From: a virus | Direction: 5' to 3' (one strand) | DNA length: 64,000 bases | Virus record (IMG/VR): IMGVR_UViG_3300045988_154140 | Coordinates: 1-64,000 of that record | Part shown: piece after piece, positions 14,401 to 37,034 of the stretch | How positions within the stretch are numbered: position 1 is the first letter of the stretch | How the letters are laid out: every line of letters starts with the position of its first letter | The notes under the pieces: generated by a model | Database searches by the model: none | The model's input: the letters and a program-made list of their open reading frames with translations, nothing else | Told to the model about the DNA's origin: nothing | Made by a program: the position numbers and the translations under genes

Positions 14401-17400
14401 GCGGCCACCTCGCTACGGGTAGGCACTGCTGTATCGGCAGGCGCGTCCTCCTCTGTAGCGGGAGTGCCCTCTATGACCACAGAAGAACCGTCAGTCGGTG
14501 TCTCCTCTGTTGCACCGCCCTCCGTAGTCTCCTCCACCGCGCTGCGCTCTGCATCGCGCTGCGCTGCGTCTTCCTGCTCATACACGTAGTCCTGGGAAGA
14601 CAGAAGCTCGTCAGCGGTGGCCTTGAAGGGTGTGCCGCTTATGGCTTCCTCCTCGCCTGCCTCGTTCATGCGTGTGGGCAGGAGATAGAAGTTACCCTCC
14701 TCATCCTCCTTCACGATGAGGAAGCGCTGTGTCTCGTTATCCTCGTCATCGCTCTTGCGCATGCTGATGCTGACCGTCTCACCCACGGCGGGCTGCACGG
14801 TCTTGTTATGGTGGTTGAGGTTCCAGCGTACTTCATCCTTCGCCTGCTCCCACAGCTGCTTGCGTCTGGCTTCTGTCTCCTCGCTGGCGTTGACGGCTGT
14901 CAGTTCTCCCGCCTCCTCACGCGGTATCATGCGCAGAGCGCCTGTCCCCATATCACGCACCACCAGCGTATTGCCTTCGTCAGACAGAGAAGAGGGTACG
15001 ACATATTCGTTCTCTCCAAGGTTAGAGCCGCGCCATGCGTTGCCCTCCTCGTCCGACATGAGGTTTAGCGTGTTGCCGTACTTGTCGGCTTCCTCGTCCA
15101 CGCGGTCATGCGCCCCTGCCATGATACCGCTCAGTCGGACGCTGGACAGATACACATCCGTAGCCGCCTTCTTCTGCTCCCAGTTCAGTGTCTTCAGTAT
15201 CTCCTGGAACTGCGGCAAGTCCATATCCCGCACGGCCATCACGAAGTCCTTGCCCAGCATTTCGGTAGCGGTTGCCGCTGCATTGTCAAACTCTACAGCG
15301 GCATTGTGGCGCTCGTCAACGGCCATCTCATGCCCCGCGTCAAACGCGCTCTTATAGCCACGCTGCACACGGTTTGCACTTATCTCCCCAGACATATCGC
15401 TTGTGTTTACGCTCTGGTAGGCCACCAGCTTACCAGCGTAGTCCATCAGCGCGCGCGCCTGCTCGCTGTCCTTCAGCCCGCCATCCTTGAGGACGGACAT
15501 ATACACGTCGCATATATCCTTGATGCTCTCTGCCTCGCGCATGCGGGTCATAAGAGGTACAGCGGTCTCCTCGCCCAACGACTTGCGCAGGGCATCGGCA
15601 GAGGTGTTCAGCTGGCGCTTGACGGTGTAGGAGTTGTAGCGCTTCTGGCCTTGCTCGATAGCGGCCATGGGCATAATCATCGCGGCCACCGACAAGAATG
15701 TCTCCAAGTTTGTCTCGGCGTTGAACATGGAGCCTTTCCAGTCGTTCACGGCTTTGTTGTAGTCCTCCTCGCTCTTGTAGTCCTCGCGCTTTGGCTCGAA
15801 GACACCTCCCGTCAGGTTCATGTCGCCTGTGAAAACCGCGTTCTCCAGGTTGTTTATCACTTCCTCTGCATACTCCCCGAAGAGGCCGCTTATGTGCGCT
15901 TTCTTGCGGAACTCGGCCAGCAGGGAAGCCTTCTGCTTCGGTGAGGATGCAATGAACCGCTCCACCATGCTGCGTGCCAAGGGCATATCCTTTGCGGCAA
16001 GGTTGGCAAAGTTCTTTATCGGGGAGAAGTATTCACCCACCAGCTCGGACTGGTTCTCGAAGTAGGAAGCCAAGCCCCCCTTGAGGTACGACTTAGCCCC
16101 TGTCTCTCTGTCCTCCACGCGGTCATACACTATGCGCCCGCTGTCATCCACACGGCCTATGAACGTACCCGTCTGCCTCTCGTTTATAGAGGCCATGGTA
16201 CGCGGCAGGCCAGTGGTGAGTGTTGTACCCAGTGCCTCCACTCCATCACCTATCACGCGCCCTGCGGTGTTCATCGCGCGCACGCCCCACTTGCCATATT
16301 TGTTCACGGCGGCTACGGTGAGGGCGCGCTGCATGCTCTGCTCGGCGGCGGTCATGGTAGGCGCGCCAGTCACGTTCTTCATCACCGTCTTACCCGCTGT
16401 CTTCATCGCGCCCTTCAGCACTTCCTTCACGCCTCCCTTGGCAGCGTTAGCCGCTACTTGCTTCTCCACAGCCGCACCCAGTCCGTTGAGCGGGTTGATG
16501 TAGATGCTAGCGGCAAAGCCCGCAGAGGCAGGCACGCTCTGTCCTACGCGGTAGGACATCGGCACGTGCTCACTGAAGTTAGCGTCCAGCGTGCTTGATA
16601 CCGCCATCGCGTCCAGCACTCTCTGCTCGGTTGCGGTCAGATGCTCCTCGGGTGTCTTGCCTGCCTCCTCGGCCTTGCGGATTCGCTCTGACTTATCTAC
16701 AAGCTCAGCCAGGTTACGGCTGTCTGCCCAGTCGTTGGCACCGAAGTCCCACGTGCGTATATCGCGGGTAGCGTCCCACGCGCCACGTGCCACGTTGAAG
16801 GCTGTGTTGTTGGAAAAGCCTTCGCGTGTAGCCTGCTTGATGGTGTTTTCTGTGTCCTCCAGTGCCTGCTCTGCGGCCTTGGCCTTGCCATACTCGGGGT
16901 CTGTCCACCTACGTATGTAAGAGGTCACGTTGGGGAACTGGCTCTCAGCGAACTCCATAAAGCCCGACTTCTCGCCTCGTCTCTCCTCTATGTCCTTCAA
17001 CGCGTTGGCCACCTCCTCCTTTGCAGCCTCGAGTTGTTCTCTGCCGCCTCCCAGCTCGTACTCGGCCTTCACATCGCGCCCGCGGTACTTCTTTTCTGCT
17101 GCGTCCCGCTGCTGCTGTAGGCGGTCTATGGCCTGCATGATATAGCCTTTGCGTGTCTCACTCGTCTGGTCGGTACCCTTAATGCGGTCATACTGCTCCC
17201 GCATGACGGTCAGCTGCTTGTCTATGCCTGCCAACTCCTCCTGCCGCTTGCGGTCTATCTCCTCTTGCGCGCGAGCCAGCTTACGCGCTTGCTCCTGCTG
17301 ATTGTCCAGAGCGGCCTGCTCACGCTCGGCAGAAGCCTGCGAGGTGTACTCGTTGCCGCTCTGTGTTATGTAGGTTCGCTCCTGCTTGCCTGTCTTGGCA

Positions 17401-19625: not shown

Positions 19626-20987
19626 CTACCTGTACGTCTGTACCAAGCGCTTGAGTGCGCCCATGAGCGCGTTCTGCTCGTTGGCCTTGCTCTGTATGGC
19701 CTGCCAGGCTCTCTCATCCACAGTGTCGGAACACAGCAGATGATAGACTTGCACGGGGTACTTCTGACCTTGCCTGTGCAGTCTCGCGCAGGCCTGCTGG
19801 TACAACTCAAGGTTGAACCCCACACCGAACCACACGATGACGTGTCCTCCTGCCTGCATGTTAAGGCCGTAGGCGCATGAGGCGGGATGGGCAAGCAGCA
19901 CCTCCACCTCTCCCTTGTTCCATGCGCGCAAGTCCTGCTCGTTCTCGTAGGCTCTCAGCTTGTAGTCCTTGCCGAGCGCGTCCTTGATACGTGCAAGGTC
20001 GTGCTTGTACTGGTAGAAGACGAGCACAGGAGACCCTGCGGCCTCTACTATCTCTCTGAGGGCTTCTATCTTCTCCTGATGTATCTCCTCCACCATGTGT
20101 TCGTCTGTATAGACAGCGCCGTTGGCATACTGAAGCAGCTTACCCATGAGGGCTGCGGCACTCGCGGCAGTGATAGCCTCTGTGTCGCTTATGCTCATCA
20201 CCATCTCACGCTCGAACTTGCGGTAGCGGCTCAGTATGCTGGCGGGCAGATGCACTCTCTTCACGATGTCCTGCCTCTCTGGCAGTGTCAGATAGTCTCC
20301 TGCCTGCATGGTGAGGCAGATGTCGGACAGCAGCGCGTCTATCTGTTCCTTGGATCCTTCCTTCAGCGTTGCCCTAAGCAGATAGCCCTGCGGACTTGTT
20401 GTCACGTTGAAGTAATTGCTCCTGTAGCGTGTCACGAACTTGCCAAGGCGCTGGCCTCCGTCTATGCAGAACACCTCTGCCCAGAGGTCAAGGTAGCCGT
20501 TAGGGGCTGGCGTGCCTGTAAGCCCTATGATATGGCTGAACTGGCTACGCACAAGCCGCATCGCCTTGAAGCGCTGGCTTGTGTTGCTCTTGAAGCTTGT
20601 CAACTCGTCTATGATGAGCATGTCAAACGGCATGCTGGCGTTGTAGTACTTGACCAGCCACACCCAGGAGTCGCGGCCAAGCACGTAGAGGTCGGCATCC
20701 TGCTCCAGAGCCTTTATGCGCTGCTTCTCTGTGCCTATGACGCGGCTCACGCGCAGACCCGACAGATGCTCCCATTTCTCTACCTCGTCTGACCATGTGG
20801 ATTCTGCCACCTTACGTGGGGCGATGACAAGCGCCTTGCTGACCTCCATGTCTGCAAGCATCCTGCCCAAGGCAGTAAGCGTTATAAGGCTCTTGCCCAA
20901 GCCCATCTCAAGCAGAAGCGCGCAGCGCGGCGTGTCTTCCACAAACCGAACCGCGCGCTTCTGGTAATCATGCAGGACTGCTTTCAT
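19626..20987 (-). CDS. SNF2-family helicase
   Basis: Walker A-like EMGLGKS, DExx box LIIDELTSF, LTGTPAPNG, C-terminal helicase motif RLHRQGQ. Confidence 0.85.
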   Translation of the reverse strand: MKAVLHDYQKRAVRFVEDTPRCALLLEMGLGKSLITLTALGRMLADMEVSKALVIAPRKVAESTWSDEVEKWEHLSGLRVSRVIGTEKQRIKALEQDADLYVLGRDSWVWLVKYYNASMPFDMLIIDELTSFKSNTSQRFKAMRLVRSQFSHIIGLTGTPAPNGYLDLWAEVFCIDGGQRLGKFVTRYRSNYFNVTTSPQGYLLRATLKEGSKEQIDALLSDICLTMQAGDYLTLPERQDIVKRVHLPASILSRYRKFEREMVMSISDTEAITAASAAALMGKLLQYANGAVYTDEHMVEEIHQEKIEALREIVEAAGSPVLVFYQYKHDLARIKDALGKDYKLRAYENEQDLRAWNKGEVEVLLAHPASCAYGLNMQAGGHVIVWFGVGFNLELYQQACARLHRQGQKYPVQVYHLLCSDTVDERAWQAIQSKANEQNALMGALKRLVQTYR

Positions 20988-22043: not shown

Positions 22044-23276
22044 CTATAATTCCTCCCCAAAGTCGAATTTCATCTGTTGGAACTTCTCGGCATACCATCG
22101 TTTGTATGATTTACCCGAAATCCACCAGTCATAGATATTCTCCGCTATTTCGTTTTCTTGCTCCTCTGTCAAGCGGTCAGAAGAGGAGCTGGATGAAAAC
22201 CCCGATTGTCTCTCTCCACATTTCGTGCCATTCGATCGTTTGGTATCGCTCTCCAAATGTCCTTTTGGTAGGAATTGAGGCGTTTTGCCCCCTGTCCAAT
22301 GCCCTGGGTCGGGATGCTTGATGTAGCCCGCATCTGTTTTTCTGAGCAATCCTCTTACGTTGCTTGAAGGAACCTTGTCTTCGCGGATATTCCACCAGAC
22401 ATATTCCTCTTTGAACCCAGTATTCCTACGGATGGCCTTAATAGCCCTTATCCAACCTCGCTTGACGTGCGGATAGCGAGCGTTTTCGAGCATTTTCTGC
22501 TTGTATGAACTCATTGGGCAACTTATACAGCCTATGCGGTGCCAGCCTTCATCGTAGAGGGAGCAGTGCGGTACCTTCACCACATCGTTGAGAAATTCCC
22601 ACACGTCTTGCTCCGTCCAGTAAATGATGGGTGATACAAGTAGAGTCTCTTTGCCGTGGATGCAGCCTAATGTCTGTTCCTCGTCAGCATTGGTGATGTT
22701 CACTCCCTCCTTCTTCGACTTTCGCCTCAGGCGTTTAGCCTTCTGTTCCTGTCGGTACTTCTCCAGCTCGTCGAGGTCGCCACTAAACTTTCGGTTGCTC
22801 GTCTCAACCTCGTTGCGCTTGGCTCGGCGCGAACTCTCTGCCTTGCGGATGCCGATGAGCGTTACCTTTCCAGCGCCTGCCAGCTCCTTGTATTCGGCGC
22901 AACACCATCGCACACGCTTTGTGGGTAATATCCGTTTTTCGATGGCAATCTGAAAGATGCTCTTCTTCGGCTTTATGAGTTCAACTTCTGGATAGTTCCT
23001 CTTTACGAAGCGTATCACTTCGGGAGGGTCAACGCTCGTGAGATTCATGTGGCCTTGAAATTTCACTCCTGCTAACTGCGCCATGTGGTAGAGAGCCTGC
23101 GAGTCCTTGCCGCCGCTAAACGCAAGGTAATAGCCTTGCTCGGCATCATAGTTGAGCGCAATCTTCTCTGCCTTTTGCAGCAACTCAAACGAGTGAAGCA
23201 TCTTCTTTCGCAGTCGAGCCGAAGCACGGGCTAATGCCTCGTCAAGTAGAATTTTTGTATTCAAGTCTTTTAACAT
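22044..23276 (-). CDS. PP-loop ATP pyrophosphatase, PAPS-reductase/DndC/IbrA-like
   Basis: AFSGGKDSQA PP-loop, RWCCAEYK, GIRKAESSRR, RIGCISCP; its ATG overlaps the stop of the MTase-like gene. Confidence 0.8.
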   Translation of the reverse strand: MLKDLNTKILLDEALARASARLRKKMLHSFELLQKAEKIALNYDAEQGYYLAFSGGKDSQALYHMAQLAGVKFQGHMNLTSVDPPEVIRFVKRNYPEVELIKPKKSIFQIAIEKRILPTKRVRWCCAEYKELAGAGKVTLIGIRKAESSRRAKRNEVETSNRKFSGDLDELEKYRQEQKAKRLRRKSKKEGVNITNADEEQTLGCIHGKETLLVSPIIYWTEQDVWEFLNDVVKVPHCSLYDEGWHRIGCISCPMSSYKQKMLENARYPHVKRGWIRAIKAIRRNTGFKEEYVWWNIREDKVPSSNVRGLLRKTDAGYIKHPDPGHWTGGKTPQFLPKGHLESDTKRSNGTKCGERQSGFSSSSSSDRLTEEQENEIAENIYDWWISGKSYKRWYAEKFQQMKFDFGEEL

Positions 23277-29510: not shown

Positions 29511-30218
29511 TTACTCTGTAACCAGTTCCCAGTCCTCCGCAAATACATCGCTGGACGATGGAACCCATGAATCAGCGCGTCCGTCTTGGTTAATGATGAG
29601 CATCTGGTTTATGTATTTCAGGCATGGTTTCTGACGCTTCATCAGGATGTCCTTCGCAATCTGAGGCAGCGACTGCATATTAGGGATGGTCTCGCTTATA
29701 ATATGAGCGGGAACTTGCTTAATAACAAACATACCCTTGCCATTCCAGCCAGCTCTACGGATAGCACCACCCGCTTTAAGGAACTTGATAGCCGTACCGA
29801 AGTCATAGTTGTTGAGAGATTCCTTCCCATCAGACATCCGTTCGAGTCTATCATTCAACAGATAGGAATACTCCCTCTCTGTTTCAACCTGTGCTGAAAG
29901 AAGTGCCTTCGTGGGGTGTATGAGGGCATAACCTTCGTTTGCCAAAAACTCCATTCCCTTCGCAAAGCGCGTATTCAATTCTTCAAGCTGAATCTTAATA
30001 TGGTCAGCAGGAGCCTCAGCAACTCTATAGGCTTTCTCAAAAACAGACTTTGGAGACCAAGAGTCGTAGATGCTACCGTCTGGGTTGGTGTACTGCACAT
30101 GATAGCCTTCACGCCATTCGTGGTTGTCCTCGTTCTTGCGGGCGTAACCTTTCTCTACTGCGGCCAATTCGTTCATCGGCATGGCCTTTACCGTTTTTGT
30201 TCCTACATAAGTTTTCAT
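29511..30218 (-). CDS. Two-domain protein: small phage N-domain + DUF2829/Tad2-like C-domain
   Basis: C-terminal FGTAIKFLKAGGAIRRAGWNGKGMFV...SWVPSSSDVFAEDWELV matches DUF2829 hallmarks (GWNGKG, D.LAEDWE). Confidence 0.7.
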   Translation of the reverse strand: MKTYVGTKTVKAMPMNELAAVEKGYARKNEDNHEWREGYHVQYTNPDGSIYDSWSPKSVFEKAYRVAEAPADHIKIQLEELNTRFAKGMEFLANEGYALIHPTKALLSAQVETEREYSYLLNDRLERMSDGKESLNNYDFGTAIKFLKAGGAIRRAGWNGKGMFVIKQVPAHIISETIPNMQSLPQIAKDILMKRQKPCLKYINQMLIINQDGRADSWVPSSSDVFAEDWELVTE

Positions 30219-30238: not shown

Positions 30239-30547
30239 TTAAACATTATCTATCATCCTCTCTATCTCGTCTCTTGAACTCACCACATACACGGCCTGCC
30301 CAAGCTTGTGCAGCTGCTGGATCCTCGCTTGCTGTACCGCCCTCGGCTTCTTGCCTCTGGACTTCAGCTCGCACCATGCTGCCCTGCCGCCTGGCAGGAG
30401 AAGCAGTCTGTCGGGGAAGCCTGTGCATGTCGGGTTGCTGTACTTGAGGGCGACGCCACCGAGCATCTTCACCCGTTTCACCAGGTAGGCCTCCAACGCT
30501 TTTTCGCTCAGCAGAGAGTGGCCTGCTATCTCGTCTATCCTTCTCAT
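30239..30547 (-). CDS. VRR-NUC nuclease
   Basis: GFPDRLLLLPGGRAAWCELKSRGKKP (D...ExK) in a 102-aa protein. Confidence 0.75.
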   Translation of the reverse strand: MRRIDEIAGHSLLSEKALEAYLVKRVKMLGGVALKYSNPTCTGFPDRLLLLPGGRAAWCELKSRGKKPRAVQQARIQQLHKLGQAVYVVSSRDEIERMIDNV

Positions 30548-32958
30548 AAGTCATCATCCGTTAGTATCTCGTCCTGACTGCTGCGCACCCATAGGCGCTG
30601 CCTGCCGTAGCCAGATATTATCTTTCTATCTCCTTTCTCCCAGCCTGGAATCCACTCGAAGAGCGCGTTTATCTCTCGGGACTTATAGCGCAACTTCTCG
30701 TCCAACGACTCACCGAACAGCTCGTATAATATCTCCACCGTGCTAACCTCCGTGCGGGTGAGAACCCCCTCGGCCTCAAGCGGGTCTGTCTGCTTGAAGT
30801 AGGCTCTGCGTCTCTCCAGGCTTCTTGTCTCCCAGTCGGCAGGAAGTGGCGTGTCGAGGTATCGCTGTATGAGTCCTATGCGCTCATCCTTGGCAACGTC
30901 GTTAAACTCCTTCTGCATCTTACGCGCCTGCATCTCCAGGTCTCGGGACAGGAACAGCGGCTCTCCTTGCTCGTATCGCGTCTTGGCTTCTGCCCATACT
31001 TGGTCTCTATATTCGCTGTTAAGTTCTGTCCATATCGTCTTGGTCGGCACCTCTACGCCAGCCTCCACTACCCAGAAGCGTCTGTTACCGTTTGCGCCCT
31101 TGAGGAAGTTCGTCTCGTTGGTTGTGCCGAAGAACACGCACTGCCTCGGGTACTCCTCTTCTCTGCGTCCGTAGGCGGGTCTGTACTTGTCAACGCTGCG
31201 TGAGAGGTACTGCTTCACAGCCTCCACCTCACTGCGCTTGATGCCTGCCAGCTCGCCCAACTCTATGAGCCAGGCCTTGCGCAGGCTTGCCATGCCTTCC
31301 TTGCCTTCCACCGTCACCACACTGTCACTGAACCACTCACCGCCCATCCTTGCCAGCAGGGTGCTCTTGCCTATACCTTCGGGTCCTGTGATGACCAGCG
31401 TGTAGTCGTACTTACAGCCTGGTCTTGTCGCGCGTGCCACAGCGGCAGTGAACTGCTTGCGTGTCTGCGCTCTTGTCAGTTCTGTGTCTCTTGCGCCGAG
31501 GAAGTCTATCAGCAGGGTGTCAAGGCGCTCTGTACCGTCCCAGTGCAGGCCGTTCAGATACTCTCTCACGGGATGCTTCCTCCTGCTGTTGAAGACAGCT
31601 GTCAGCGCGTCTGTTATGCGGTCTTTACCCGTAATGCCATACCGCTCCTCCAGGAAGCAGCGCAGGCAGCAGTCGTCCGAGTTCGTCCAGATGCCGAGTG
31701 GCCGTCCAACCGTCCAAGGCAGCTTGCCTTCGTAGCAGTCCATGCCGCTAAAGTCGTTCCTCCAAAGCTTGCCCTTGAAGCACTGGCCATTCTCCAGCAC
31801 AAGGCGTATGTTCTTGATGGTGCTTGCCACAAGCCCCGCCCTTGTGAAGTCCATGAGTTTCACCCATCCTTCATCCTCCGCGCCTGCCCCTACATTCTTG
31901 AAGTCTCCTTCGGCCGAGGCGTTGCGCTCCTCCATCAGCGCGAGGCGCACCTGAGCGTCCGAGGCGGCAAACTCGCTCATCTTCTTGTAGGAGGGAAGCG
32001 AGGTGATGGAAGTACCCTCTTGGGCGTGCTCGTCATCCTTGCCGAATTTATGCAGCCTCACAAGGTCAAAGGAATTGACCAGATGCTGCGAGCAGGGGTC
32101 GGTGGCGTTATGGCTGTAGGCAAACAGGCCTCCCTCATATACCACCAGTCCAGCTGCTACGCTTCCCTGTGTATAGGTGTAGCGCTCTGTGTCCCCGCAT
32201 TGCTCATATACGTCAGACAGGAAGGTCGCTATGGCCTCGTGTATGTTGTAGCAGCGGCAGAACGCGCCCACGATACCCTTCTTCTCTGTCGGGTCTCCCT
32301 GCTTCTTGGAGGAGGTGTGTATGCAGGCGGCTACGCGGCTGCTGTAAGGCCACTCGCTCACATCGCGCCAGTTATGGTAGGTGGCAAGCACCTCGTCAGG
32401 ATCCAGGGCTTCACCCTCTGTATGCTTGAAGTAATACTCTACATCACGGGGGCTGCTCGGCCAGTACATCAGCCGCTCGGCCTCGTAGGTTGTATCATCG
32501 AAGAGGTCTATGCCTATCCGTGCGGCCAGCGCTCTGCCTACGGCCTCGTACTCCTCGCTTGTCACGCTGCGGCTCAGCAGTACCACAAGCCTCATGCGGG
32601 GTGCTTCGGGTGTGTAGGTGTGCGTTCCATACACAAACGCCTCATTGCCGTACAACAGACAGTACTGCTCCCAGGTATCGGCCTTCGCGTAGTCTATGTC
32701 CAGCGTTAGCACATCGCGGAACTTCACGCTGCCTTTCCTGCGTTGCCCTTCTATGAGGTAGCCACCCACGAAGCCTCCCACGTCCTTACGCTGACTTTGG
32801 TCGGGCTTGCTCATTGCCTTGTACTCCGCAAGGCTCTCGCCTGTCTGGGCGGTCTGTGAGCAACGCTTCACCAGCTTCTTCCAGTGCGTCTGTTTATTGC
32901 TCCAGCGCGTTGCGGTTCGCTTGGGCGCTGTGGCTATATATATTTGTCGGTCTGCCAT
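30544..32958 (-). CDS. Primase-helicase (VirE/BT4734-like N-domain + P-loop NTPase)
   Basis: LTLDIDYAK...VYGTHTYTP N-domain; Walker A ITGPEGIGKST; Walker B-like WLIELGEL. Confidence 0.8.
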   Translation of the reverse strand: MADRQIYIATAPKRTATRWSNKQTHWKKLVKRCSQTAQTGESLAEYKAMSKPDQSQRKDVGGFVGGYLIEGQRRKGSVKFRDVLTLDIDYAKADTWEQYCLLYGNEAFVYGTHTYTPEAPRMRLVVLLSRSVTSEEYEAVGRALAARIGIDLFDDTTYEAERLMYWPSSPRDVEYYFKHTEGEALDPDEVLATYHNWRDVSEWPYSSRVAACIHTSSKKQGDPTEKKGIVGAFCRCYNIHEAIATFLSDVYEQCGDTERYTYTQGSVAAGLVVYEGGLFAYSHNATDPCSQHLVNSFDLVRLHKFGKDDEHAQEGTSITSLPSYKKMSEFAASDAQVRLALMEERNASAEGDFKNVGAGAEDEGWVKLMDFTRAGLVASTIKNIRLVLENGQCFKGKLWRNDFSGMDCYEGKLPWTVGRPLGIWTNSDDCCLRCFLEERYGITGKDRITDALTAVFNSRRKHPVREYLNGLHWDGTERLDTLLIDFLGARDTELTRAQTRKQFTAAVARATRPGCKYDYTLVITGPEGIGKSTLLARMGGEWFSDSVVTVEGKEGMASLRKAWLIELGELAGIKRSEVEAVKQYLSRSVDKYRPAYGRREEEYPRQCVFFGTTNETNFLKGANGNRRFWVVEAGVEVPTKTIWTELNSEYRDQVWAEAKTRYEQGEPLFLSRDLEMQARKMQKEFNDVAKDERIGLIQRYLDTPLPADWETRSLERRRAYFKQTDPLEAEGVLTRTEVSTVEILYELFGESLDEKLRYKSREINALFEWIPGWEKGDRKIISGYGRQRLWVRSSQDEILTDDDL

Positions 32959-32975
32959 TATATCGTGTATAAATC

Positions 32976-34907
32976 TTAGTCCTTCATATAGTAGGGTGTC
33001 GTATAGCCTGCGCCTTTAAGCGGCAGTCCAGGGCACCAGTCTATCGGTTCTGCGAACAGAGCCTCTATCTCTGCAAGCGCGTTGGGGCGCTGTGAGTCCA
33101 CGATTATCTCGTCATGTACGTGGAACACTATCTTATGCCCCTGCTTCTCGGCCTTGAGCATCACGTGGCAGAGGATGTCACGCGCGATTGCCTGCACGAT
33201 GTTCTCCACAAGCTTGCCTCCCCAAGTGTCTGCGGTCTCCCACTTCTTCGTTGTCTGGTTCTGACGCTCGTAGGTGATACGCATGCCCTTGAAGGTCTCT
33301 GTAGCATCCACTCTCGGGTAGGCAATGCGCCTGCCGCTGGGCAGGGTGACGAACAGCATGCCGTACTGCTTCTGCATACGTATGCCTCTGTTGATGGCTA
33401 TCACGCGTCCCGTCTGTATGGCTGCAATGGCTGCACGCTCCACCACACTCCACAGGTTTACGGTGTGAGGGTTAGCGCGTCTCCACTGGCGCACGTAGGT
33501 TTCCTTCTCCTTGTCAGTGAAGTTCAGTCCGTAGTTCCTTGCCATACTGTCGAAGGCAGCGGGGCCACCGCCATAACCGCAGGCAAGCACGGCCACCTTG
33601 CCTGGCTGTCTGAGGTCTCCATGGGGGCCATGCTTGGTAACCTCCACGCCGAACATCCTGCTGGCTGTCACGCAGTAGATGTCTCCTCCCTTGGCAAAGG
33701 TGTCCAGCACCCACTGCTCACCGCTCACCCATGCCGTTACTCTCGCCTCGATGGCTGAGAAGTCACACACGTGCAGCACTCCTCCCTCTGAGGGGATGAA
33801 GGCTGTCCTTATGAGCTGTGACAGGGTATCGGGTATGCTGTCGTAGCAGAGAGACATCATCTCGTAGTCACCGCCTCGCAGTATCTCACGCGCAAGGCTA
33901 AGGTCACTGAGGTGGTTCTGCGGCAGGTTCTGTGTCTGCACACCCCGTCCGCTGAAGCGCCCTGTAAAGGTGCCGTAGTACTGCGTGAGGCCGTGGGCGC
34001 GACCGTCCTTGCAACGCCACTGAAGCATGGTCTCGTACTTCTTCACACTTGTCTTGCCAAGGTCAAGCCGTATCTCCAGCATCCTGCGTACTCGTTCGGG
34101 CAGATAGGGGTTCTTAAGCAACTCCTTCACAACAGACTTGTCAAGGGCTTCTGTCTTCACTCCCCAACTGGCAAGCCAAGGCCGCAACTGGGCGATGCTA
34201 CTTGGGTTCTCAAGGCCTGTTATCTTCTTTGCTTCCTCGCTAAGCTCCGCAGAGCATCGTTCCCAGAAGCGCAAGGCGTTACGTGCTAGTGTAGCATCCA
34301 CAGCCACACCGCGCTGGTTGATACGGAAGTCAAGCAGCTGCACCTCACGCTCCCAACGTGGTTGCCAAGCTTTATCCACAAGCCTGCGGCCTATCTCCAC
34401 CTCGCTATCTACATCACGGCGGCAGTACTGCTTGAAGAGTTCCCAGCGCTCCTTGTGTTGCTCACGTGTCCTCCTCGCACCTTTATAGGGCTTGCAGAAG
34501 AACGTGATGAGCGCCTTGCCTTCTCTCATCTTCTGCTTGTCCTCTGCCAGCCCAAGGACTTCTCCCAGCTGGCCAAGGGCAAGGGGCAGGCCAAGGTACG
34601 CGCCCATGATCATGGTGTCGTACCACTGCGTCTCGTCCATCTTCTGACCGAAGTGCTTGCTGAGGCACACTATCTCGAACGACATGTTATGTGCCAACTT
34701 CTTTACTGAGGGGTCAAGCAGCGCGTGCCTGACCTCGGCAGGCAACTCCTCGCCAGCCTCGAAGTCAACTATCTCAGCGGGAGTGCCGTCTATGCTGTAG
34801 CTGAAGAGCAATACCTTGAAGTTGTCACTCTCCACGTACTTATACAGACCGCAGGCACTCAAGTCCACGTCCGAGTATGTCTCTATATCTATCAGTAATG
34901 AAGTCAT
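32976..34907 (-). CDS. Family-A DNA polymerase with 3'-5' exonuclease
   Basis: Exo I LIDIETYS, Exo II AHNMSFE, motif A DFSAIEARV, motif B RQPGKVAVLACGYGGG, motif C HVHDEIIV. Start moved to MTSLLIDIE because the upstream 24 codons run through a tRNA-like element. Confidence 0.85.
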   Translation of the reverse strand: MTSLLIDIETYSDVDLSACGLYKYVESDNFKVLLFSYSIDGTPAEIVDFEAGEELPAEVRHALLDPSVKKLAHNMSFEIVCLSKHFGQKMDETQWYDTMIMGAYLGLPLALGQLGEVLGLAEDKQKMREGKALITFFCKPYKGARRTREQHKERWELFKQYCRRDVDSEVEIGRRLVDKAWQPRWEREVQLLDFRINQRGVAVDATLARNALRFWERCSAELSEEAKKITGLENPSSIAQLRPWLASWGVKTEALDKSVVKELLKNPYLPERVRRMLEIRLDLGKTSVKKYETMLQWRCKDGRAHGLTQYYGTFTGRFSGRGVQTQNLPQNHLSDLSLAREILRGGDYEMMSLCYDSIPDTLSQLIRTAFIPSEGGVLHVCDFSAIEARVTAWVSGEQWVLDTFAKGGDIYCVTASRMFGVEVTKHGPHGDLRQPGKVAVLACGYGGGPAAFDSMARNYGLNFTDKEKETYVRQWRRANPHTVNLWSVVERAAIAAIQTGRVIAINRGIRMQKQYGMLFVTLPSGRRIAYPRVDATETFKGMRITYERQNQTTKKWETADTWGGKLVENIVQAIARDILCHVMLKAEKQGHKIVFHVHDEIIVDSQRPNALAEIEALFAEPIDWCPGLPLKGAGYTTPYYMKD

Positions 34908-34908
34908 G

Positions 34909-35006
34909 TGAGGCTCTGTGGAATCGAACCACAGAAGCAGGCCATACGCCGCACTCGCAACCACAAAGGAGTGCTCCAATCCTGCTTTGACTGACCAGTC
35001 AGCCCC
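34909..35006 (-). ncRNA. tRNA-like RNA 2 (cloverleaf with an oversized anticodon-arm equivalent)
   Basis: Acceptor GGGGCT/AGCCTC, D-like hairpin GACT-GGTC-AGTC, helix AAGCAGG/CCTGCTT enclosing 39 nt, canonical T-arm TGTGG-TTCGATT-CCACA. Confidence 0.55.
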
Positions 35007-35161
35007 GTGTGGCCAGCTCTATATCCTCGCGGACAGTGGGCTTGGCCTCCATTGTCTATAAAAAGAAATTTCCAATGTGCGAGGCAGGCTTGCCCTCACG
35101 GGATTGCCTACCTAAGTAAAAATAGTAATGAATCTAAAACAATGTACATTAAAGAGTCTTG

Positions 35162-35219
35162 CTCCCGCGGGGTGAGTCGAACACCCAGACATCAAGATAA
35201 GACCATCCGTGGCGCGGGA
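35162..35219 (-). ncRNA. tRNA-like RNA 1 (acceptor + T-arm mini-element)
   Basis: TCCCGCG/CGCGGGA acceptor stem and T-arm GGGTG-TTCGACT-CACCC, with only 26 nt between them. Preceded by hairpin GGAGT-N10-ACTCC (35221-35240). Confidence 0.45.
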
Positions 35220-35240
35220 GGGAGTTACTGGGACTACTCC

Positions 35241-35810
35241 TTATAAATCGTCATCGTAGGCGGGTATGTTCACCCCTGCGAAGTCTGCGGCGGCATCCGT
35301 CTTGGCATTACCCAGAGGCTCACCGTCTCTTGACTTCATCAGATTGTTCAGATACACGCTGATGCCCATCTTGCCGTTGTTGAGGTAACCTCTGAAGGCG
35401 ATGCTCGCGTAGCCGTAGCAGCCGCTATACATCTCGTCAGGGTTAAGTATGGGCTGCTTGTTGCGGTCTATGATGCCTGGCTGGCTCTTGCCCTTAGAGT
35501 TGAGGAACCAGTGGTTCTCGTAGGCTTCTCCTCTGTCTGTGCCGTCATTCTTAGGCTCGTCACCGTCATGCAGAGGGGTCACGTTCTTCAGAGGAGGACG
35601 CTTGCCGCCCCATATCTCAGTGACTGCTGACTCGTATGCCTGCTTGATAGCCTTGTCTATAAGTGCGTTCAGCTGCGCGTTGTCCTTCGGGATGAGCAAT
35701 GTTGCCGTGTAGTTCTTGTTGGCTCCTTCCTCTGCCGCCCAAGGCTCAAACACATGGAGGTAACTGAAGCGTACCTCGCCGATAACTAAAGAAATTGCTT
35801 TTGTTGCCAT
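35241..35810 (-). CDS. ssDNA-binding protein, T7 gp2.5-like (DUF2815)
   Basis: GEVRFSYLHVFEPW N-terminus and acidic C-terminal tail PAYDDDL; sits in a DUF2800/PolA module. Confidence 0.7.
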   Translation of the reverse strand: MATKAISLVIGEVRFSYLHVFEPWAAEEGANKNYTATLLIPKDNAQLNALIDKAIKQAYESAVTEIWGGKRPPLKNVTPLHDGDEPKNDGTDRGEAYENHWFLNSKGKSQPGIIDRNKQPILNPDEMYSGCYGYASIAFRGYLNNGKMGISVYLNNLMKSRDGEPLGNAKTDAAADFAGVNIPAYDDDL

Positions 35811-35843: not shown

Positions 35844-37034
35844 TTACTCGTCTATCTCAATCTTCTCAAAATCCTTCTGCGCGCTGCTGTAGTCATTGCA
35901 CTCCTCTCTGTCATCCGATGAAGGAGCAAGCGTAGGTTTACCTTTAGGCTTAACAACGCAATTGGGTGACATCGCGGTGAACTTTTTTTTACCCACCATC
36001 TTTTCCAGTTCTCCTATACCCTTCAACTCCTGCGGCTTGTATATGTCTGTAGCACCAGCCTCCAGCAGTCGCTCGATAAGAAGATTTTGGTTGATAATGG
36101 TACGGTTGCTTTTACCTTCCACCACTTTCCAGCCCTTATACTTTGTTCCCTCTATTGCCTTAGCAAGCGCATACTCCTCTACAGCAGTGCACCACTTCTT
36201 GATGGTGGGTATCACCTCCAGGATAGCGGGCATCTGCTCGGCAGTTATCAAGCCCTTGTCCTTGTGCTCGGAGTGTACCGATAGGGCTTGCTCGGCCAGC
36301 TTGGCACACTGAGCCTGCACCTTGCAGAACCTGCACCACTCACCTGGCTTCTGCTCGCCCTCGCCCTTGTTGGCCTTGCGGGCAGCGGGCGTAAGCTTCT
36401 CCTCCTGCCACTTGGCCAGTTCCTCCACCGACAGCTCGTATTCGCTTATGTTCTGCTTGCGGGGCTGTATGATGGTCATGCGCACACACCGTATGTCGTA
36501 CTCCCAGGAGTAAGCGTCCAGCGCGCCAAGCGCGTATATCATCATCTGTGTGTTTTCGGTAGCGCTCACCTCCACACCTTTGCCATACTTGAAGTCTATC
36601 ACCTCCATCATCCCATCGGCTATGATGATGGCATCAGCCGTGCCGAAGGAGTCGGGGATATACTTGGTAAAGTCAAGCCGCTTCTCCACGAACAGCTGGG
36701 CATCAGCGGTACTCTTCAGCGCGTCCCTGTACTTTTCCCACACCACACTCACGTAGAGGTCGGTCGCTTCCTTCATCTCATCGGTAGAGTACTTCTCGCG
36801 ACCTTGCTCGAACTCATCCCTCGCGGCTTTCAAAGCCTGCTCGTACTTACCGCCTGTCTCCACGTTGAGATAGTGCAGAAGCTTGGACTCGCACAAGGCA
36901 TGCGCGCAGGATCCTTCTTCGGCATATACGCTTCCCTTGTCTGGCACTCTCTCCTCCAGCCTGGCAGAGGGAGTGCAGTTTATCCATCTATGGCTGCTGC
37001 TCGGTGAAAGCAGCGCGTGTCCTGTAGCCGACAT
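35844..37034 (-). CDS. PD-(D/E)XK nuclease, DUF2800/Cas4-like
   Basis: LSPSSSHRWINCTPS N-terminus, DAIIIADG..IDFKYGKG core, C-terminal CRFCKVQAQC cluster. Confidence 0.75.
   Translation of the reverse strand: MSATGHALLSPSSSHRWINCTPSARLEERVPDKGSVYAEEGSCAHALCESKLLHYLNVETGGKYEQALKAARDEFEQGREKYSTDEMKEATDLYVSVVWEKYRDALKSTADAQLFVEKRLDFTKYIPDSFGTADAIIIADGMMEVIDFKYGKGVEVSATENTQMMIYALGALDAYSWEYDIRCVRMTIIQPRKQNISEYELSVEELAKWQEEKLTPAARKANKGEGEQKPGEWCRFCKVQAQCAKLAEQALSVHSEHKDKGLITAEQMPAILEVIPTIKKWCTAVEEYALAKAIEGTKYKGWKVVEGKSNRTIINQNLLIERLLEAGATDIYKPQELKGIGELEKMVGKKKFTAMSPNCVVKPKGKPTLAPSSDDREECNDYSSAQKDFEKIEIDE

What the first reader, a model, noticed from the sequence alone, without database searches (positions are those of the whole stretch)
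34908..35240. Two non-canonical tRNA-like RNAs fill the SSB-polymerase gap; the second ends 2 nt before the polymerase ATG
The 333-nt gap between the SSB stop (35241) and the best polymerase start (34907) has no plausible ORF. Read on the coding (minus) strand it is densely structured.

Element 2 (35006 to 34909) has these parts:
- Acceptor-like stem GGGGCT/AGCCTC (6 bp, one G-U).
- Hairpin GACT-GGTC-AGTC, whose GG loop mimics a D-loop.
- A 7-bp helix AAGCAGG/CCTGCTT. Instead of a 7-nt anticodon loop it closes a 39-nt insert with an inner 6-bp hairpin GCACTC/GAGTGC.
- A textbook T-arm TGTGG-TTCGATT-CCACA with G53-C61 and a T54-psi55-C56 equivalent.

Element 1 (35219 to 35162) has a 7-8 bp GC acceptor stem TCCCGCG/CGCGGGA and T-arm GGGTG-TTCGACT-CACCC. 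Only 26 nt stand where the D and anticodon arms should be.

Two GNRA-capped hairpins lie between the elements: CCC-GTGA-GGG at 35093-35102 and TCC-GCGA-GGA at 35024-35033.

The ORF-track polymerase start (34979) reads straight through element 2. The conserved exo motif begins right after the internal Met (MTSLLIDIETYS).

Inference: the elements could be RNase P/Z punctuation that releases a near-leaderless polymerase mRNA, decoys for anticodon nucleases, or a new phage RNA class.
Basis: partly seen in the sequence, partly recalled or inferred. Interest (0 to 1): 0.72.

Follow-up and report, generated by a model that had tools for sequence, protein, structure and literature searches.

The report
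tRNA-like punctuation elements in a phage
The gap between a gut phage's SSB and DNA polymerase genes holds two conserved RNA elements that mimic only the top half of a tRNA. They belong to an undescribed family that probably lets the host's tRNA-processing enzymes cut the phage operon mRNA exactly at gene borders.

Summary
On the coding (minus) strand, 35219-35162 and 35006-34909 each form an acceptor stem stacked on a perfect T-arm. ARAGORN and Rfam call no tRNA or tmRNA. These are the only two such motifs in 128 kb of window, and shuffles give 0.05 per strand.

Relatives with 57-100% identical polymerase carry 1-6 such elements in the same operon, all on the coding strand. Across 27 elements, 11 of 12 stem pairs covary and a 12-bp coaxial stack is kept in 26. 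G53-C61 is invariant, a GG follows the acceptor strand, G-U outnumbers A-C 12 to 1, and the trailer starts with CA, never CCA. The interior varies from 9 to 80 nt and has no anticodon loop.

The first element starts 9-34 nt after the SSB stop. The last ends 1-4 nt (close relatives) or 12-19 A-rich nt (distant ones) before the polymerase ATG. Conserved GNRA-capped hairpins often sit 4-5 nt upstream. Firmicutes-prophage relatives have no gap.

Best reading (inferred, about 0.55): phage counterparts of plant-mitochondrial t-elements and mascRNA, that is, RNase P/RNase Z punctuation in an SD-less Bacteroidota host. I found no phage precedent. The polymerase starts at 34907, not 34979.

The parts
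35241..35810 (-). Upstream gene: Enc34/gp2.5-type ssDNA-binding protein (stop TAA at 35243-35241)
   Evidence: Pfam PF10991 E=2.5e-51, PHROG 112
35221..35240 (-). Hairpin GGAGU-(AGUCCCAGUA)-ACUCC directly after the SSB stop, 1 nt before element 1. It would be the 3'-terminal hairpin of a processed SSB mRNA
   Evidence: Sequence. L060 has a different stem (CUGAGUAA/UUAUUCAG) around the same UCCCAG loop
35162..35219 (-). tRNA-like element 1: acceptor TCCCGCG/CGCGGGA (7 bp), 26-nt interior with GG motifs, T-arm GGGTG-UUCGACU-CACCC, discriminator G, trailer CAA
   Evidence: Positional orthologs in L060, L062, L134 and L137 have T stems GGGCG/CGCCC, AGGGG/CCCCT, CGTGG/CCACG and TGCGG/CCGCA, and an acceptor pair 6-67 change from C-G to A-U
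35114..35161 (-). A+T-rich spacer with UUUUAGAUU motif and a TACTA unit (35127-35123) whose copy number varies from 1 to 3 among near-identical relatives
   Evidence: alignment. No sigma-70-like promoter or terminator is called on this strand inside the gap
35082..35113 (-). Two-tier hairpin AGGUAGGC-AAU-CCC-GUGA-GGG-CAA-GCCUGCCU (GNRA cap)
   Evidence: Fold -19 kcal/mol, z=-2.15. The 10-mer CCCGTGAGGG recurs twice in L127 upstream of tRNA-like elements, on the coding strand only
35011..35047 (-). Two-tier hairpin GGCC...GUCC-GCGA-GGAU...GGCC ending 4 nt upstream of element 2
   Evidence: Fold z=-3.0. The 10-mer TCCGCGAGGA recurs in L060, L135 and L161 on the coding strand only, upstream of tRNA-like elements (4-5 nt in L060 and L161, about 70 nt in L135)
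34909..35006 (-). tRNA-like element 2: acceptor GGGGCU/AGCCUC (6 bp, G2-U71), CUGG-containing linker, long central arm AAGCAGG/CCUGCUU with inner hairpin, T-arm CUGUGG-UUCGAUU-CCACAG (6 bp), discriminator A
   Evidence: Ortholog L133:3488-3595 keeps the architecture with acceptor GGGAGA/UCUCUC and central helix GAUAGGC/GCCUAUC, which are compensatory changes
32976..34907 (-). Downstream gene: family A DNA polymerase. Its ATG (34907-34905) is separated from the discriminator of element 2 by a single C (34908)
   Evidence: Pfam PF00476, PHROG 17. N-terminus confirmed by relatives

Best explanation
The gap encodes two members of an undescribed family of phage 't-elements'. These are RNAs co-transcribed with the SSB-polymerase operon that keep only the top half of a tRNA: a 12-bp acceptor/T coaxial stack, a canonical T-loop with G53-C61, a GG that can close the elbow, a discriminator and C74.

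Proposed mechanism (inferred):
- Host RNase P cuts at the 5' end of each element. Host RNase Z, which is not blocked because CCA is absent, cuts after the discriminator.
- Element 1 thereby ends the SSB mRNA about 20 nt after its stop, just after a small hairpin.
- Element 2 removes a structured leader and releases a polymerase mRNA whose AUG lies 1 nt from the new 5' end.
- The roughly 155-nt spacer with two GNRA hairpins and the two tRNA-like RNAs are by-products or small RNAs.

In an SD-less Bacteroidota host, which needs an unstructured A-rich leader, this would uncouple the abundance and translation of SSB (needed in bulk) from polymerase (needed in small amounts).

Shown: the structure, its conservation and covariation, its strand, its positions and the true pol start. 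Inferred: transcription as one unit, the cleavages, and the effect on translation.
For: 1. Specificity. These are the only two T-arm motifs in 128 kb of window, against 0.05 per strand in shuffles. Across 16 non-redundant loci (184 kb), 32 T-arm motifs lie on the coding strand, 31 of them with an acceptor; two of those 31 are the genuine tRNAs of L102 and one is a likely chance hit inside a pol gene. The opposite strand has 1 T-arm motif and none with an acceptor. All 28 hits of the covariance model lie on the coding strand.
2. Covariation. 93.8-96.6% of cells pair, 11 of 12 pairs change on both sides, and the covariation score is 0.96-1.0 against about 0.2 for shuffled or slid controls. Position 66 pairs either with position 7 or with the base before the T stem, so a 12-bp stack is kept in 26 of 27 elements. 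My scanner did not select for that alternative pair.
3. RNA level. Stems hold 12 G-U against 1 A-C.
4. Only processing-enzyme determinants are conserved. G53-C61 is invariant in 27/27. GG follows the acceptor in 27/28. N74 is C in 23/28 and N75 is A in 22/28, never CCA. The interior ranges from 9 to 80 nt without an anticodon loop.
5. Placement. Element 1 begins 9-34 nt after the SSB stop. The last element ends 1 nt (window, L062, L134, L137), 4 nt (L060, L133) or 12-19 A-rich nt (L140, L141, L162, L067) before the next ATG.
6. The leader of pol is GC-rich and structured, unlike the A/T-rich, SD-less leaders of the other genes.
7. The gap is a lineage-specific insertion. Firmicutes-prophage relatives have 0-40 nt between SSB and pol. 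One distant relative has genuine tRNA-Gln and tRNA-Thr at this site.
8. A precedent for the mechanism exists: plant-mitochondrial t-elements, found through the same GGTTCRANYCC motif, whose ends coincide with mRNA ends (PMC1920247).
9. The best Rfam near-hit of a relative's element is mascRNA/menRNA, at 28.2 bits.
Against: - No RNA ends, cleavage or expression data exist for this phage.
- Arrays of 4-6 elements (L134, L137) exceed what two gene borders need.
- Some near-identical relatives carry pair-breaking substitutions at stem ends (L056, L057/L065, L064).
- Folding z-scores of single elements are modest.
- A 1-4-nt leader is not a true leaderless mRNA, and its translatability in Bacteroidota is unknown to me.
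- The percentage-paired statistic is partly circular, because the elements were collected with a pairing filter.
- The host assignment is indirect: protein names of 52-53% relatives, absence of SD, and TAnnTTTG motifs.
Confidence: 0.55

Rival explanations
1. The released tRNA-like RNAs, and/or the GNRA-hairpin spacers between them, are the functional products. They would be stable small RNAs acting in trans, for example as sponges or decoys for host factors that read the acceptor/T domain or elbow: acceptor-end-modifying toxins, the CCA-adding enzyme, RNase P/Z, or T-loop modifiers. Processing would then be only their biogenesis route, as in the MHV68 tRNA-miRNA transcripts.
For: - Copy number expands to 3, 4 and 6 tandem elements in relatives with 79-82% pol identity. 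This includes recent duplications of a two-element unit, which suggests a dosage effect.
- Exact GNRA-hairpin 10-mers are conserved across distant relatives, 11 on the coding strand and 0 on the other.
- An anti-defence gene (Tad2-like) lies in the same module.
Against: - Nothing beyond the generic tRNA top half is conserved within the elements.
- Interiors are free to vary from 9 to 80 nt, which argues against a specific partner.
- No anticodon loop is present, so anticodon nucleases are not the target.
- The tight abutment to stop and start codons is not needed for a trans-acting RNA.
Confidence: 0.2
2. The elements act in cis as a translational operator or attenuator without cleavage. The stable tRNA-like fold ending 1 nt before the AUG limits, or makes regulatable, ribosome access to the polymerase start. 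A tRNA-binding protein or the polymerase itself might bind it, by analogy with the thrS operator or T4 gp43 (from memory).
For: - Element 2 ends 1 nt before the ATG.
- The leader is the only GC-rich, structured one among more than 30 genes.
- The abutment is conserved in relatives.
Against: - Element 1 and the internal array members are not next to any start codon.
- More distant relatives leave 12-19 nt of free A-rich leader.
- T-loop and N73/C74 conservation is unexplained by simple occlusion.
Confidence: 0.12
3. The elements are decaying phage tRNA genes (pseudogenes) or selfish tRNA-derived repeats with no function, persisting where tRNA genes once sat.
For: - A 42% relative has true tRNA-Gln and tRNA-Thr at the equivalent site.
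- Copy number turns over quickly.
- A few pair-breaking substitutions occur in close relatives.
Against: - Compensatory changes maintain the stems in orthologs while the interiors diverge.
- None of the 28 collected elements is called a tRNA or retains an anticodon arm, yet 27 of 28 have an intact T-arm (one has a single T-loop substitution); the L162 element, found later and not counted, has an 8-nt T-loop.
- Strict strand bias and a G-U:A-C ratio of 12:1.
- A conserved CA trailer and fixed position relative to ORFs.
Confidence: 0.06
4. The elements are a DNA-level feature: an attP-like tRNA fragment or a single-strand replication-origin structure in the replication module.
For: The location is inside the replication module, next to an A+T-rich tract with variable TACTA repeats.
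Against: - Both acceptor strands are present, there are multiple copies, and no integrase lies adjacent.
- The G-U bias and tRNA-specific T-loop conservation point to RNA.
- Relatives without the gap have the same replication genes.
Confidence: 0.04

Closest known systems
Plant-mitochondrial t-elements (wheat, Arabidopsis, Brassica; Forner et al. 2007, PMC1920247)
   Same: - Non-canonical tRNA-like folds embedded in mRNA precursors.
- A perfectly conserved T-arm (GGTTCRANYCC) plus an acceptor stem, with D and anticodon parts aberrant.
- Located just after or just before ORFs.
- Their ends coincide with mRNA 3' and 5' ends through RNase P and RNase Z, including an rps4 5' end at +2.
   Different: - Organellar rather than viral.
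- Single dispersed copies, not tandem arrays.
- No associated GNRA hairpin module.
- Cleavage there is partly shown by experiment; here it is not tested.
- No sequence homology is claimed.
mascRNA / MEN-beta tRNA-like RNAs at the 3' ends of MALAT1 and NEAT1 (Rfam RF01684)
   Same: - About 55-60 nt tRNA-like RNA with a reduced D region and a short central hairpin.
- RNase P cleavage makes the 3' end of the upstream RNA, which ends in a protective structure; RNase Z releases the small RNA (mechanism from memory, plus PMC8457004 title and abstract).
- L137:3294-3349 is the top Rfam near-hit, at 28.2 bits, E=0.059.
   Different: - Vertebrate nuclear lncRNAs.
- The score is below the gathering threshold (42.5), and the window's own elements do not hit the model at E<=10.
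- This is an analogy, not membership.
Mitochondrial tRNA punctuation, and tRNA-mRNA operons in bacteria
   Same: tRNA-shaped units at gene borders are excised by RNase P/Z, leaving mRNAs with 0-3-nt leaders (from memory). A relative (L102) has real tRNAs at this very position.
   Different: Here the units are not functional tRNAs: there is no anticodon arm and no ARAGORN or Rfam tRNA call.
Murid herpesvirus 68 tRNA-miRNA (TMER) transcripts; synthetic polycistronic tRNA-gRNA arrays
   Same: A virus-encoded tRNA-like structure is used as an RNase Z/P handle to release adjacent hairpin RNAs, in a tandem arrangement (from memory).
   Different: TMERs are Pol III units in a eukaryotic virus, with full cloverleaf-like vtRNAs. 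A function for the phage spacers is unknown.
tRNA-like domain of tmRNA; bacterial Y RNA (YrlA)
   Same: An acceptor plus T-arm, with a D-loop lacking a stem and a long helix replacing the anticodon arm (element 2 and L133_2).
   Different: - No tag ORF or pseudoknots.
- G3-U70 is absent in the window's elements.
- ARAGORN and Rfam tmRNA/YrlA models give no significant hit.
- No Ro60 gene was noticed.

Membership tests
Canonical tRNA (Rfam RF00005 / ARAGORN) | Cloverleaf with D-arm and a 5-bp anticodon stem closing a 7-nt loop; detectable by tRNA models | tested here: not met
   ARAGORN finds 0 genes in the window and in all close relatives. There is no RF00005 hit even at E<=10 in the gap or at E<=1-5 in relatives. 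Interiors are 9-80 nt. The positive control L102 tRNAs score 49-62 bits.
Canonical tRNA (Rfam RF00005 / ARAGORN) | 12-bp acceptor/T coaxial stack, 7-nt T-loop UUCRANY, G53-C61 | tested here: met
   the stack is kept in 26 of 27 elements (as 7+5 or 6+6) and G53-C61 in 27/27.
tmRNA | tRNA-like domain with G3-U70, plus an mRNA-like tag reading frame and pseudoknots | tested here: not met
   ARAGORN tmRNA search is negative. The only Rfam tmRNA hits are chance-level, 14-21 bits at E>1 in L133. Element 2 has G2-U71, not G3-U70. The 39-nt insert has no stop-terminated tag frame.
t-elements (organellar tRNA-like processing signals) | Non-canonical tRNA-like fold with a conserved T-arm motif and acceptor stem inside an mRNA precursor | tested here: met
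   The definition comes from PMC1920247.
t-elements (organellar tRNA-like processing signals) | Element ends coincide with mapped mRNA 5'/3' ends; cleavage by RNase P and RNase Z | not testable with these tools
   Only the positions relative to ORFs could be checked: 21 nt after the SSB stop and 1 nt before the pol ATG, with the same pattern in relatives. No transcript-end data are available.
mascRNA-menRNA (RF01684) | Score at or above the Rfam gathering threshold (42.5 bits) | tested here: not met
   The best hit is 28.2 bits, for L137:3294-3349. The window elements give no hit at E<=10.
attP-type tRNA gene fragment | Only the 3' part of a host tRNA gene, single copy, next to an integrase | tested here: not met
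   Both acceptor strands are present, there are two to six copies, and the flanking genes are SSB and PolA. Identity to a host tRNA was not tested.
Bacterial Y RNA (YrlA) | Ro60/Rsr-binding stem plus a tRNA-like module, encoded near rsr | tested here: inconclusive
   There is no Rfam hit. No Ro60/TROVE domain appears among the 19 window proteins scanned, but not all ORFs were scanned.

The most novel reading that the evidence does not exclude
The tRNA-like units and the conserved GNRA-capped hairpins together form a natural 'polycistronic tRNA-like array'. Host RNase P/Z would dice one phage transcript into a hairpin-protected SSB mRNA, a near-leaderless polymerase mRNA, and a dosage-tunable set (1-6 copies) of small tRNA-top-half and hairpin RNAs. 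Those small RNAs would act in trans on host tRNA-recognising machinery or defence systems. This would be a phage-wide gene-expression and counter-defence strategy specific to SD-less Bacteroidota hosts.
Probability: 0.15. Interest if true: 0.9.

Novelty: new variant of a known kind. Interest (0 to 1): 0.74.

Why it matters
If cleavage is confirmed, this would be the first case known to me of tRNA-punctuation or t-element logic in a bacteriophage. That strategy is so far associated with organelles, vertebrate lncRNAs and a herpesvirus.

- **Gene expression in the host.** It would show how phages of abundant gut Bacteroidales handle expression in hosts that lack Shine-Dalgarno-guided initiation.
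- **Annotation.** Gene callers extend the polymerase by 9-73 residues through the element, and tRNA finders miss the elements.
- **An RNA family to model.** It defines a compact family of 41-108 nt that can be built as a covariance model and searched for in viromes.
- **A possible tool.** It offers natural minimal RNase P/Z substrates as processing parts for Bacteroides synthetic biology.

The hypothesis can be tested directly by end-mapping and in-vitro cleavage.

Tried and rejected
- **Standard detectors.** ARAGORN on the window and about 90 loci, and Rfam at gathering and E-value thresholds, gave no tRNA, tmRNA or YrlA call for the elements.
- **GenBank phages.** blastn of the region found no match.
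- **IMG/VR pattern scan.** An exact or IUPAC pattern for element 1 returned only the two near-identical contigs.
- **GTDB genome scan with PolA.** It found only Clostridia prophages at <=46% identity, without the gap. This gave no host or prophage for the window clade.
- **MAFFT on whole elements.** It failed to keep the 5' acceptor strands in register. I used fixed-length cores instead.
- **Covariance model R1.** Built from the cores, it cannot span long interiors and mispairs the 5' strand. I used it only for strand bias and built no refined model.
- **boxA/boxB (nut-like) reading.** I considered GACUCUUUAAU plus the GTGA hairpin. I rejected it because the boxA-like string is not conserved in L060, L062 or L134.
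- **Short archaeal-type intron in tRNA-Pro(UGG).** I considered this for element 2's 39-nt insert. I rejected it because the host is bacterial, the D-arm is non-canonical, and the ortholog L133 has an unrelated insert.
- **Antisense 79-aa ORF and the TTG-34979 pol extension.** Both rejected.
- **Promoter in the A+T-rich spacer.** There is no sigma-70-like site inside the gap and only an imperfect Bacteroidota-type -7 motif by eye, so this stays undecided.
- **Literature.** Seven searches found no phage precedent.
Full report
**What is in the window**

The window is a phage genome of about 60 kb. Near-identical IMG/VR contigs are 60.6 and 63.5 kb. Its minus-strand replication module runs as follows:
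- DUF2800/PD-(D/E)XK exonuclease, 35844-37034
- Enc34/gp2.5-type SSB, 35241-35810
- family A DNA polymerase, 32976-34907
- VapE-type primase-helicase, 30544-32958

- Element 1 (35219-35162) is TCCCGCG / 26 nt / GGGTG-UUCGACU-CACCC / CGCGGGA / G.
- Element 2 (35006-34909) is GGGGCU(G) / CUGG-containing linker / long arm AAGCAGG...CCUGCUU with an inner hairpin / (C)UGUGG-UUCGAUU-CCACA(G) / AGCCUC / A. One C and the AUG follow.
- Two GNRA-capped two-tier hairpins (35113-35082 with a GUGA loop, 35047-35011 with a GCGA loop) and an A+T-rich tract lie between the elements.

MFE folding recovers all of these.

**Is it more than chance?**

ARAGORN and Rfam do not call anything here. However, a 5-bp stem closing a UUCRANN loop occurs only twice in the 128 kb of both strands, and both copies lie in this gap on the coding strand. 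When a 6-bp acceptor is also required, dinucleotide shuffles give 0.05 hits per strand.

Nothing in the gap is coding.
- The antisense 79-aa ORF is interrupted in a 92% relative and has no conserved translation.
- The TTG-34979 extension of the polymerase is frameshifted by a 1-nt indel in near-identical relatives.
- Gene callers give that extension arbitrary lengths, 643-716 aa.
- Relatives align from residue 1-4 of MTSLLIDIE.
- In distant relatives the SSB stop lies 0-40 nt from that start.

The polymerase therefore starts at 34907.

**Comparative evidence**

I collected relatives through PolA from IMG/VR, metagenomes, GTDB genomes and the protein collection. The Firmicutes-prophage clade (<=46% identity) has no gap and no elements.

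The clade of the window (57-100% identity) carries such elements in the same operon. Names attached to 52-53% relatives are Muribaculaceae and uncultured Bacteroides. Counts per locus:
- two in the 92-100% group and in L133
- three in L060
- four in L134
- six in L137
- one or two in L062, L135, L136, L140, L141, L161, L162 and L067
- four T-arm sites in L127, two of them with a complete 7-bp acceptor

In 184 kb of non-redundant loci, 32 T-arm motifs lie on the coding strand, and 31 of them have an acceptor stem (two of these are the genuine tRNAs of L102 and one is a likely chance hit inside a pol gene). The other strand has 1 motif and none with an acceptor.

Positional orthologs of element 1 have T stems GGGUG/CACCC, GGGCG/CGCCC, AGGGG/CCCCU, UGCGG/CCGCA and CGUGG/CCACG. 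They also show a C-G to A-U swap in the acceptor, while their interiors share little beyond a UGG. The ortholog of element 2 in L133 has a different acceptor (GGGAGA/UCUCUC) and a different long helix (GAUAGGC/GCCUAUC) in the same architecture.

I made a fixed-length core alignment of 27 elements (A3). On it:
- 93.8% of cells pair in the 7+5 model and 96.6% in a 6+6 model.
- 11 of 12 pairs change on both sides.
- The covariation score is 0.96-1.0, against about 0.2 for shuffled or slid controls.

The percentage paired is partly circular because my scanner required pairing. Three things were not selected for: the variety of pair types, the register specificity, and the alternative pair between position 66 and the base before the T stem (20 of 27, four pair types).

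**What is conserved and what is not**

Conserved:
- a 12-bp coaxial acceptor/T stack, in 26 of 27 elements
- the T-loop, and G53-C61 in 27/27
- a GG within a few nucleotides of the acceptor 5' strand, in 27/28
- a trailer beginning with C (23/28) then A (22/28), never CCA

G-U pairs outnumber A-C 12 to 1, so the structure is read on the coding-strand RNA.

Not conserved: everything between the acceptor and the T-arm. This interior ranges from 9 to 80 nt and has no anticodon loop. The D-like hairpin of element 2 is not kept in its ortholog.

From established knowledge of tRNA processing (my own recall), the conserved set is what RNase P, RNase Z and the CCA-adding enzyme recognise. An encoded CCA is an anti-determinant for RNase Z, and C74 contacts the P15 loop of type A RNase P RNA.

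**Placement**

Element 1 orthologs start 9-34 nt after the SSB stop. In the window the distance is 21 nt, of which 20 form a small hairpin. The stem of that hairpin differs in L060 but its UCCCAG loop is the same.

The last element ends:
- 1 nt before the polymerase ATG in the window, L062, L134 and L137
- 4 nt before it in L060 and L133
- 12-19 A-rich nt before the next start in L140, L141, L162 and L067

The last elements are not all orthologous, so position rather than descent is what is kept.

Most genes of this phage have A/T-rich leaders without a Shine-Dalgarno sequence, and TAnnTTTG motifs are present. This fits a Bacteroidota host (interpretation from my knowledge of Bacteroidota promoters and SD-independent initiation). 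The polymerase is the exception: its 35 upstream bases are the T-arm and acceptor strand of element 2.

No terminator-like site is called on this strand in the gap.

**Partner modules**

The exact 10-mers UCCGCGAGGA, GUCGUGAGAC and CCCGUGAGGG occur 11 times in these intergenic regions and never on the opposite strand. Each caps a two-tier hairpin, and many end 4-5 nt upstream of a tRNA-like element. After an RNase P cut, such a hairpin would be the 3' end of the upstream fragment. This resembles the protective structure upstream of mascRNA in MALAT1 (from memory).

**Most likely mechanism**

These are phage t-elements, that is, tRNA top-half mimics that recruit host RNase P and RNase Z to cut the operon transcript at gene borders. 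Cutting would separate a hairpin-ended SSB mRNA from a polymerase mRNA that has lost its occluding leader.

The closest documented analogue is the plant-mitochondrial t-element. It was discovered with the same GGTTCRANYCC motif, and its ends coincide with mRNA ends, including one at +2 of a start codon (PMC1920247). The best sub-threshold Rfam match of a relative's element is mascRNA/menRNA, at 28.2 bits against a gathering score of 42.5. A distant relative has genuine tRNA-Gln and tRNA-Thr at the same site. This suggests an origin from, or functional replacement of, tRNA genes.

I put this reading at about 0.55. Structure, conservation, strand and placement are shown; every cleavage step is inferred.

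**Rivals**

- **Trans-acting small RNAs or decoys, about 0.2.** Arrays of up to six elements favour this. The lack of any specific conserved interior argues against it. Anticodon-nuclease decoys in particular are excluded by the absence of anticodon loops.
- **Uncleaved translational operator, about 0.12.** This does not explain element 1 or the array members.
- **Decaying tRNA genes, about 0.06.** Covariation, strand bias and the conserved trailer contradict this.
- **DNA-level attP or origin feature, about 0.04.**

**Novelty**

Seven full-text searches found no description of such elements in phages, and no Rfam family matches. The principle is known from organelles, vertebrate lncRNAs and a herpesvirus. 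I therefore rate this a new variant of a known kind: a new RNA family in a new biological setting.

Noticed in passing
window 2424-17852 (-): A single 5142-aa ORF with MuF-C, LPD14, LPD38, ART-PolyVal, InPase and DUF3990 domains. It looks like a giant 'polyvalent protein' of the kind thought to be delivered with phage or conjugative DNA.
   Followed up: partly
window 29511-30218 (-): The ORF has a C-terminal Tad2-like (Thoeris anti-defence 2) domain, E=1.3e-18, just downstream of the replication genes. A Tad2-like gene also lies upstream of the exonuclease in L140.
   Followed up: no
window 35123-35127 (-), and L054, L056, L059: A TACTA unit in the A+T-rich spacer varies between 1 and 3 tandem copies among relatives with 92-100% identical polymerase. 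Its meaning is unknown (slippage hotspot, promoter spacing or binding site).
   Followed up: no
L102 2743-2815 and 3026-3102: A 42% relative carries genuine tRNA-Gln(UUG) and tRNA-Thr(UGU) on the coding strand upstream of its polymerase, in the region where the window clade has tRNA-like elements.
   Followed up: partly
Proteins P0001-P0007: Automatic gene calls extend this polymerase by 9-73 residues at the N-terminus (652-716 aa against 643) by reading through the tRNA-like element. This is a systematic annotation artefact in public collections.
   Followed up: yes
window 34946-34957 (-); L133 about 3527-3541: The inner loop of the long arm of element 2 (UUUGUGGUUGCG) is conserved in sequence in the L133 ortholog, although the surrounding helices differ. 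It could be a binding or pairing site.
   Followed up: no
L060 3887-3928: Two direct repeats of about 19 nt (TAAGGATAATTATCCAGTC and TAAGGGCAATTATCCAGTC) lie between the second and third tRNA-like elements. They could be a protein-binding site or an iteron.
   Followed up: no
L137 3208-3433: A two-element unit (tRNA-like, then spacer CAAGAUUGAUGAGGU..GGAAACC, then tRNA-like) is tandemly duplicated, giving three near-identical AGAGG-UUCGAUU-CCUCU elements. This shows recent array expansion.
   Followed up: partly
window 22044-23276 (-) and 19626-20987 (-): A PAPS-reductase-domain protein and an SNF2-family helicase lie downstream of the replication module. The former may relate to DNA or nucleotide modification.
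   Followed up: no
window upstream of 48234, 54231, 56091, 59788 (-): TAnnTTTG-type motifs (TATCTTTGCG, TAACTTTGCAGG, TATCTTTGCG, TAACTTTGCGG) lie 15-25 nt upstream of several starts, and most genes lack a Shine-Dalgarno sequence. This fits Bacteroidota-type promoters and initiation.
   Followed up: partly
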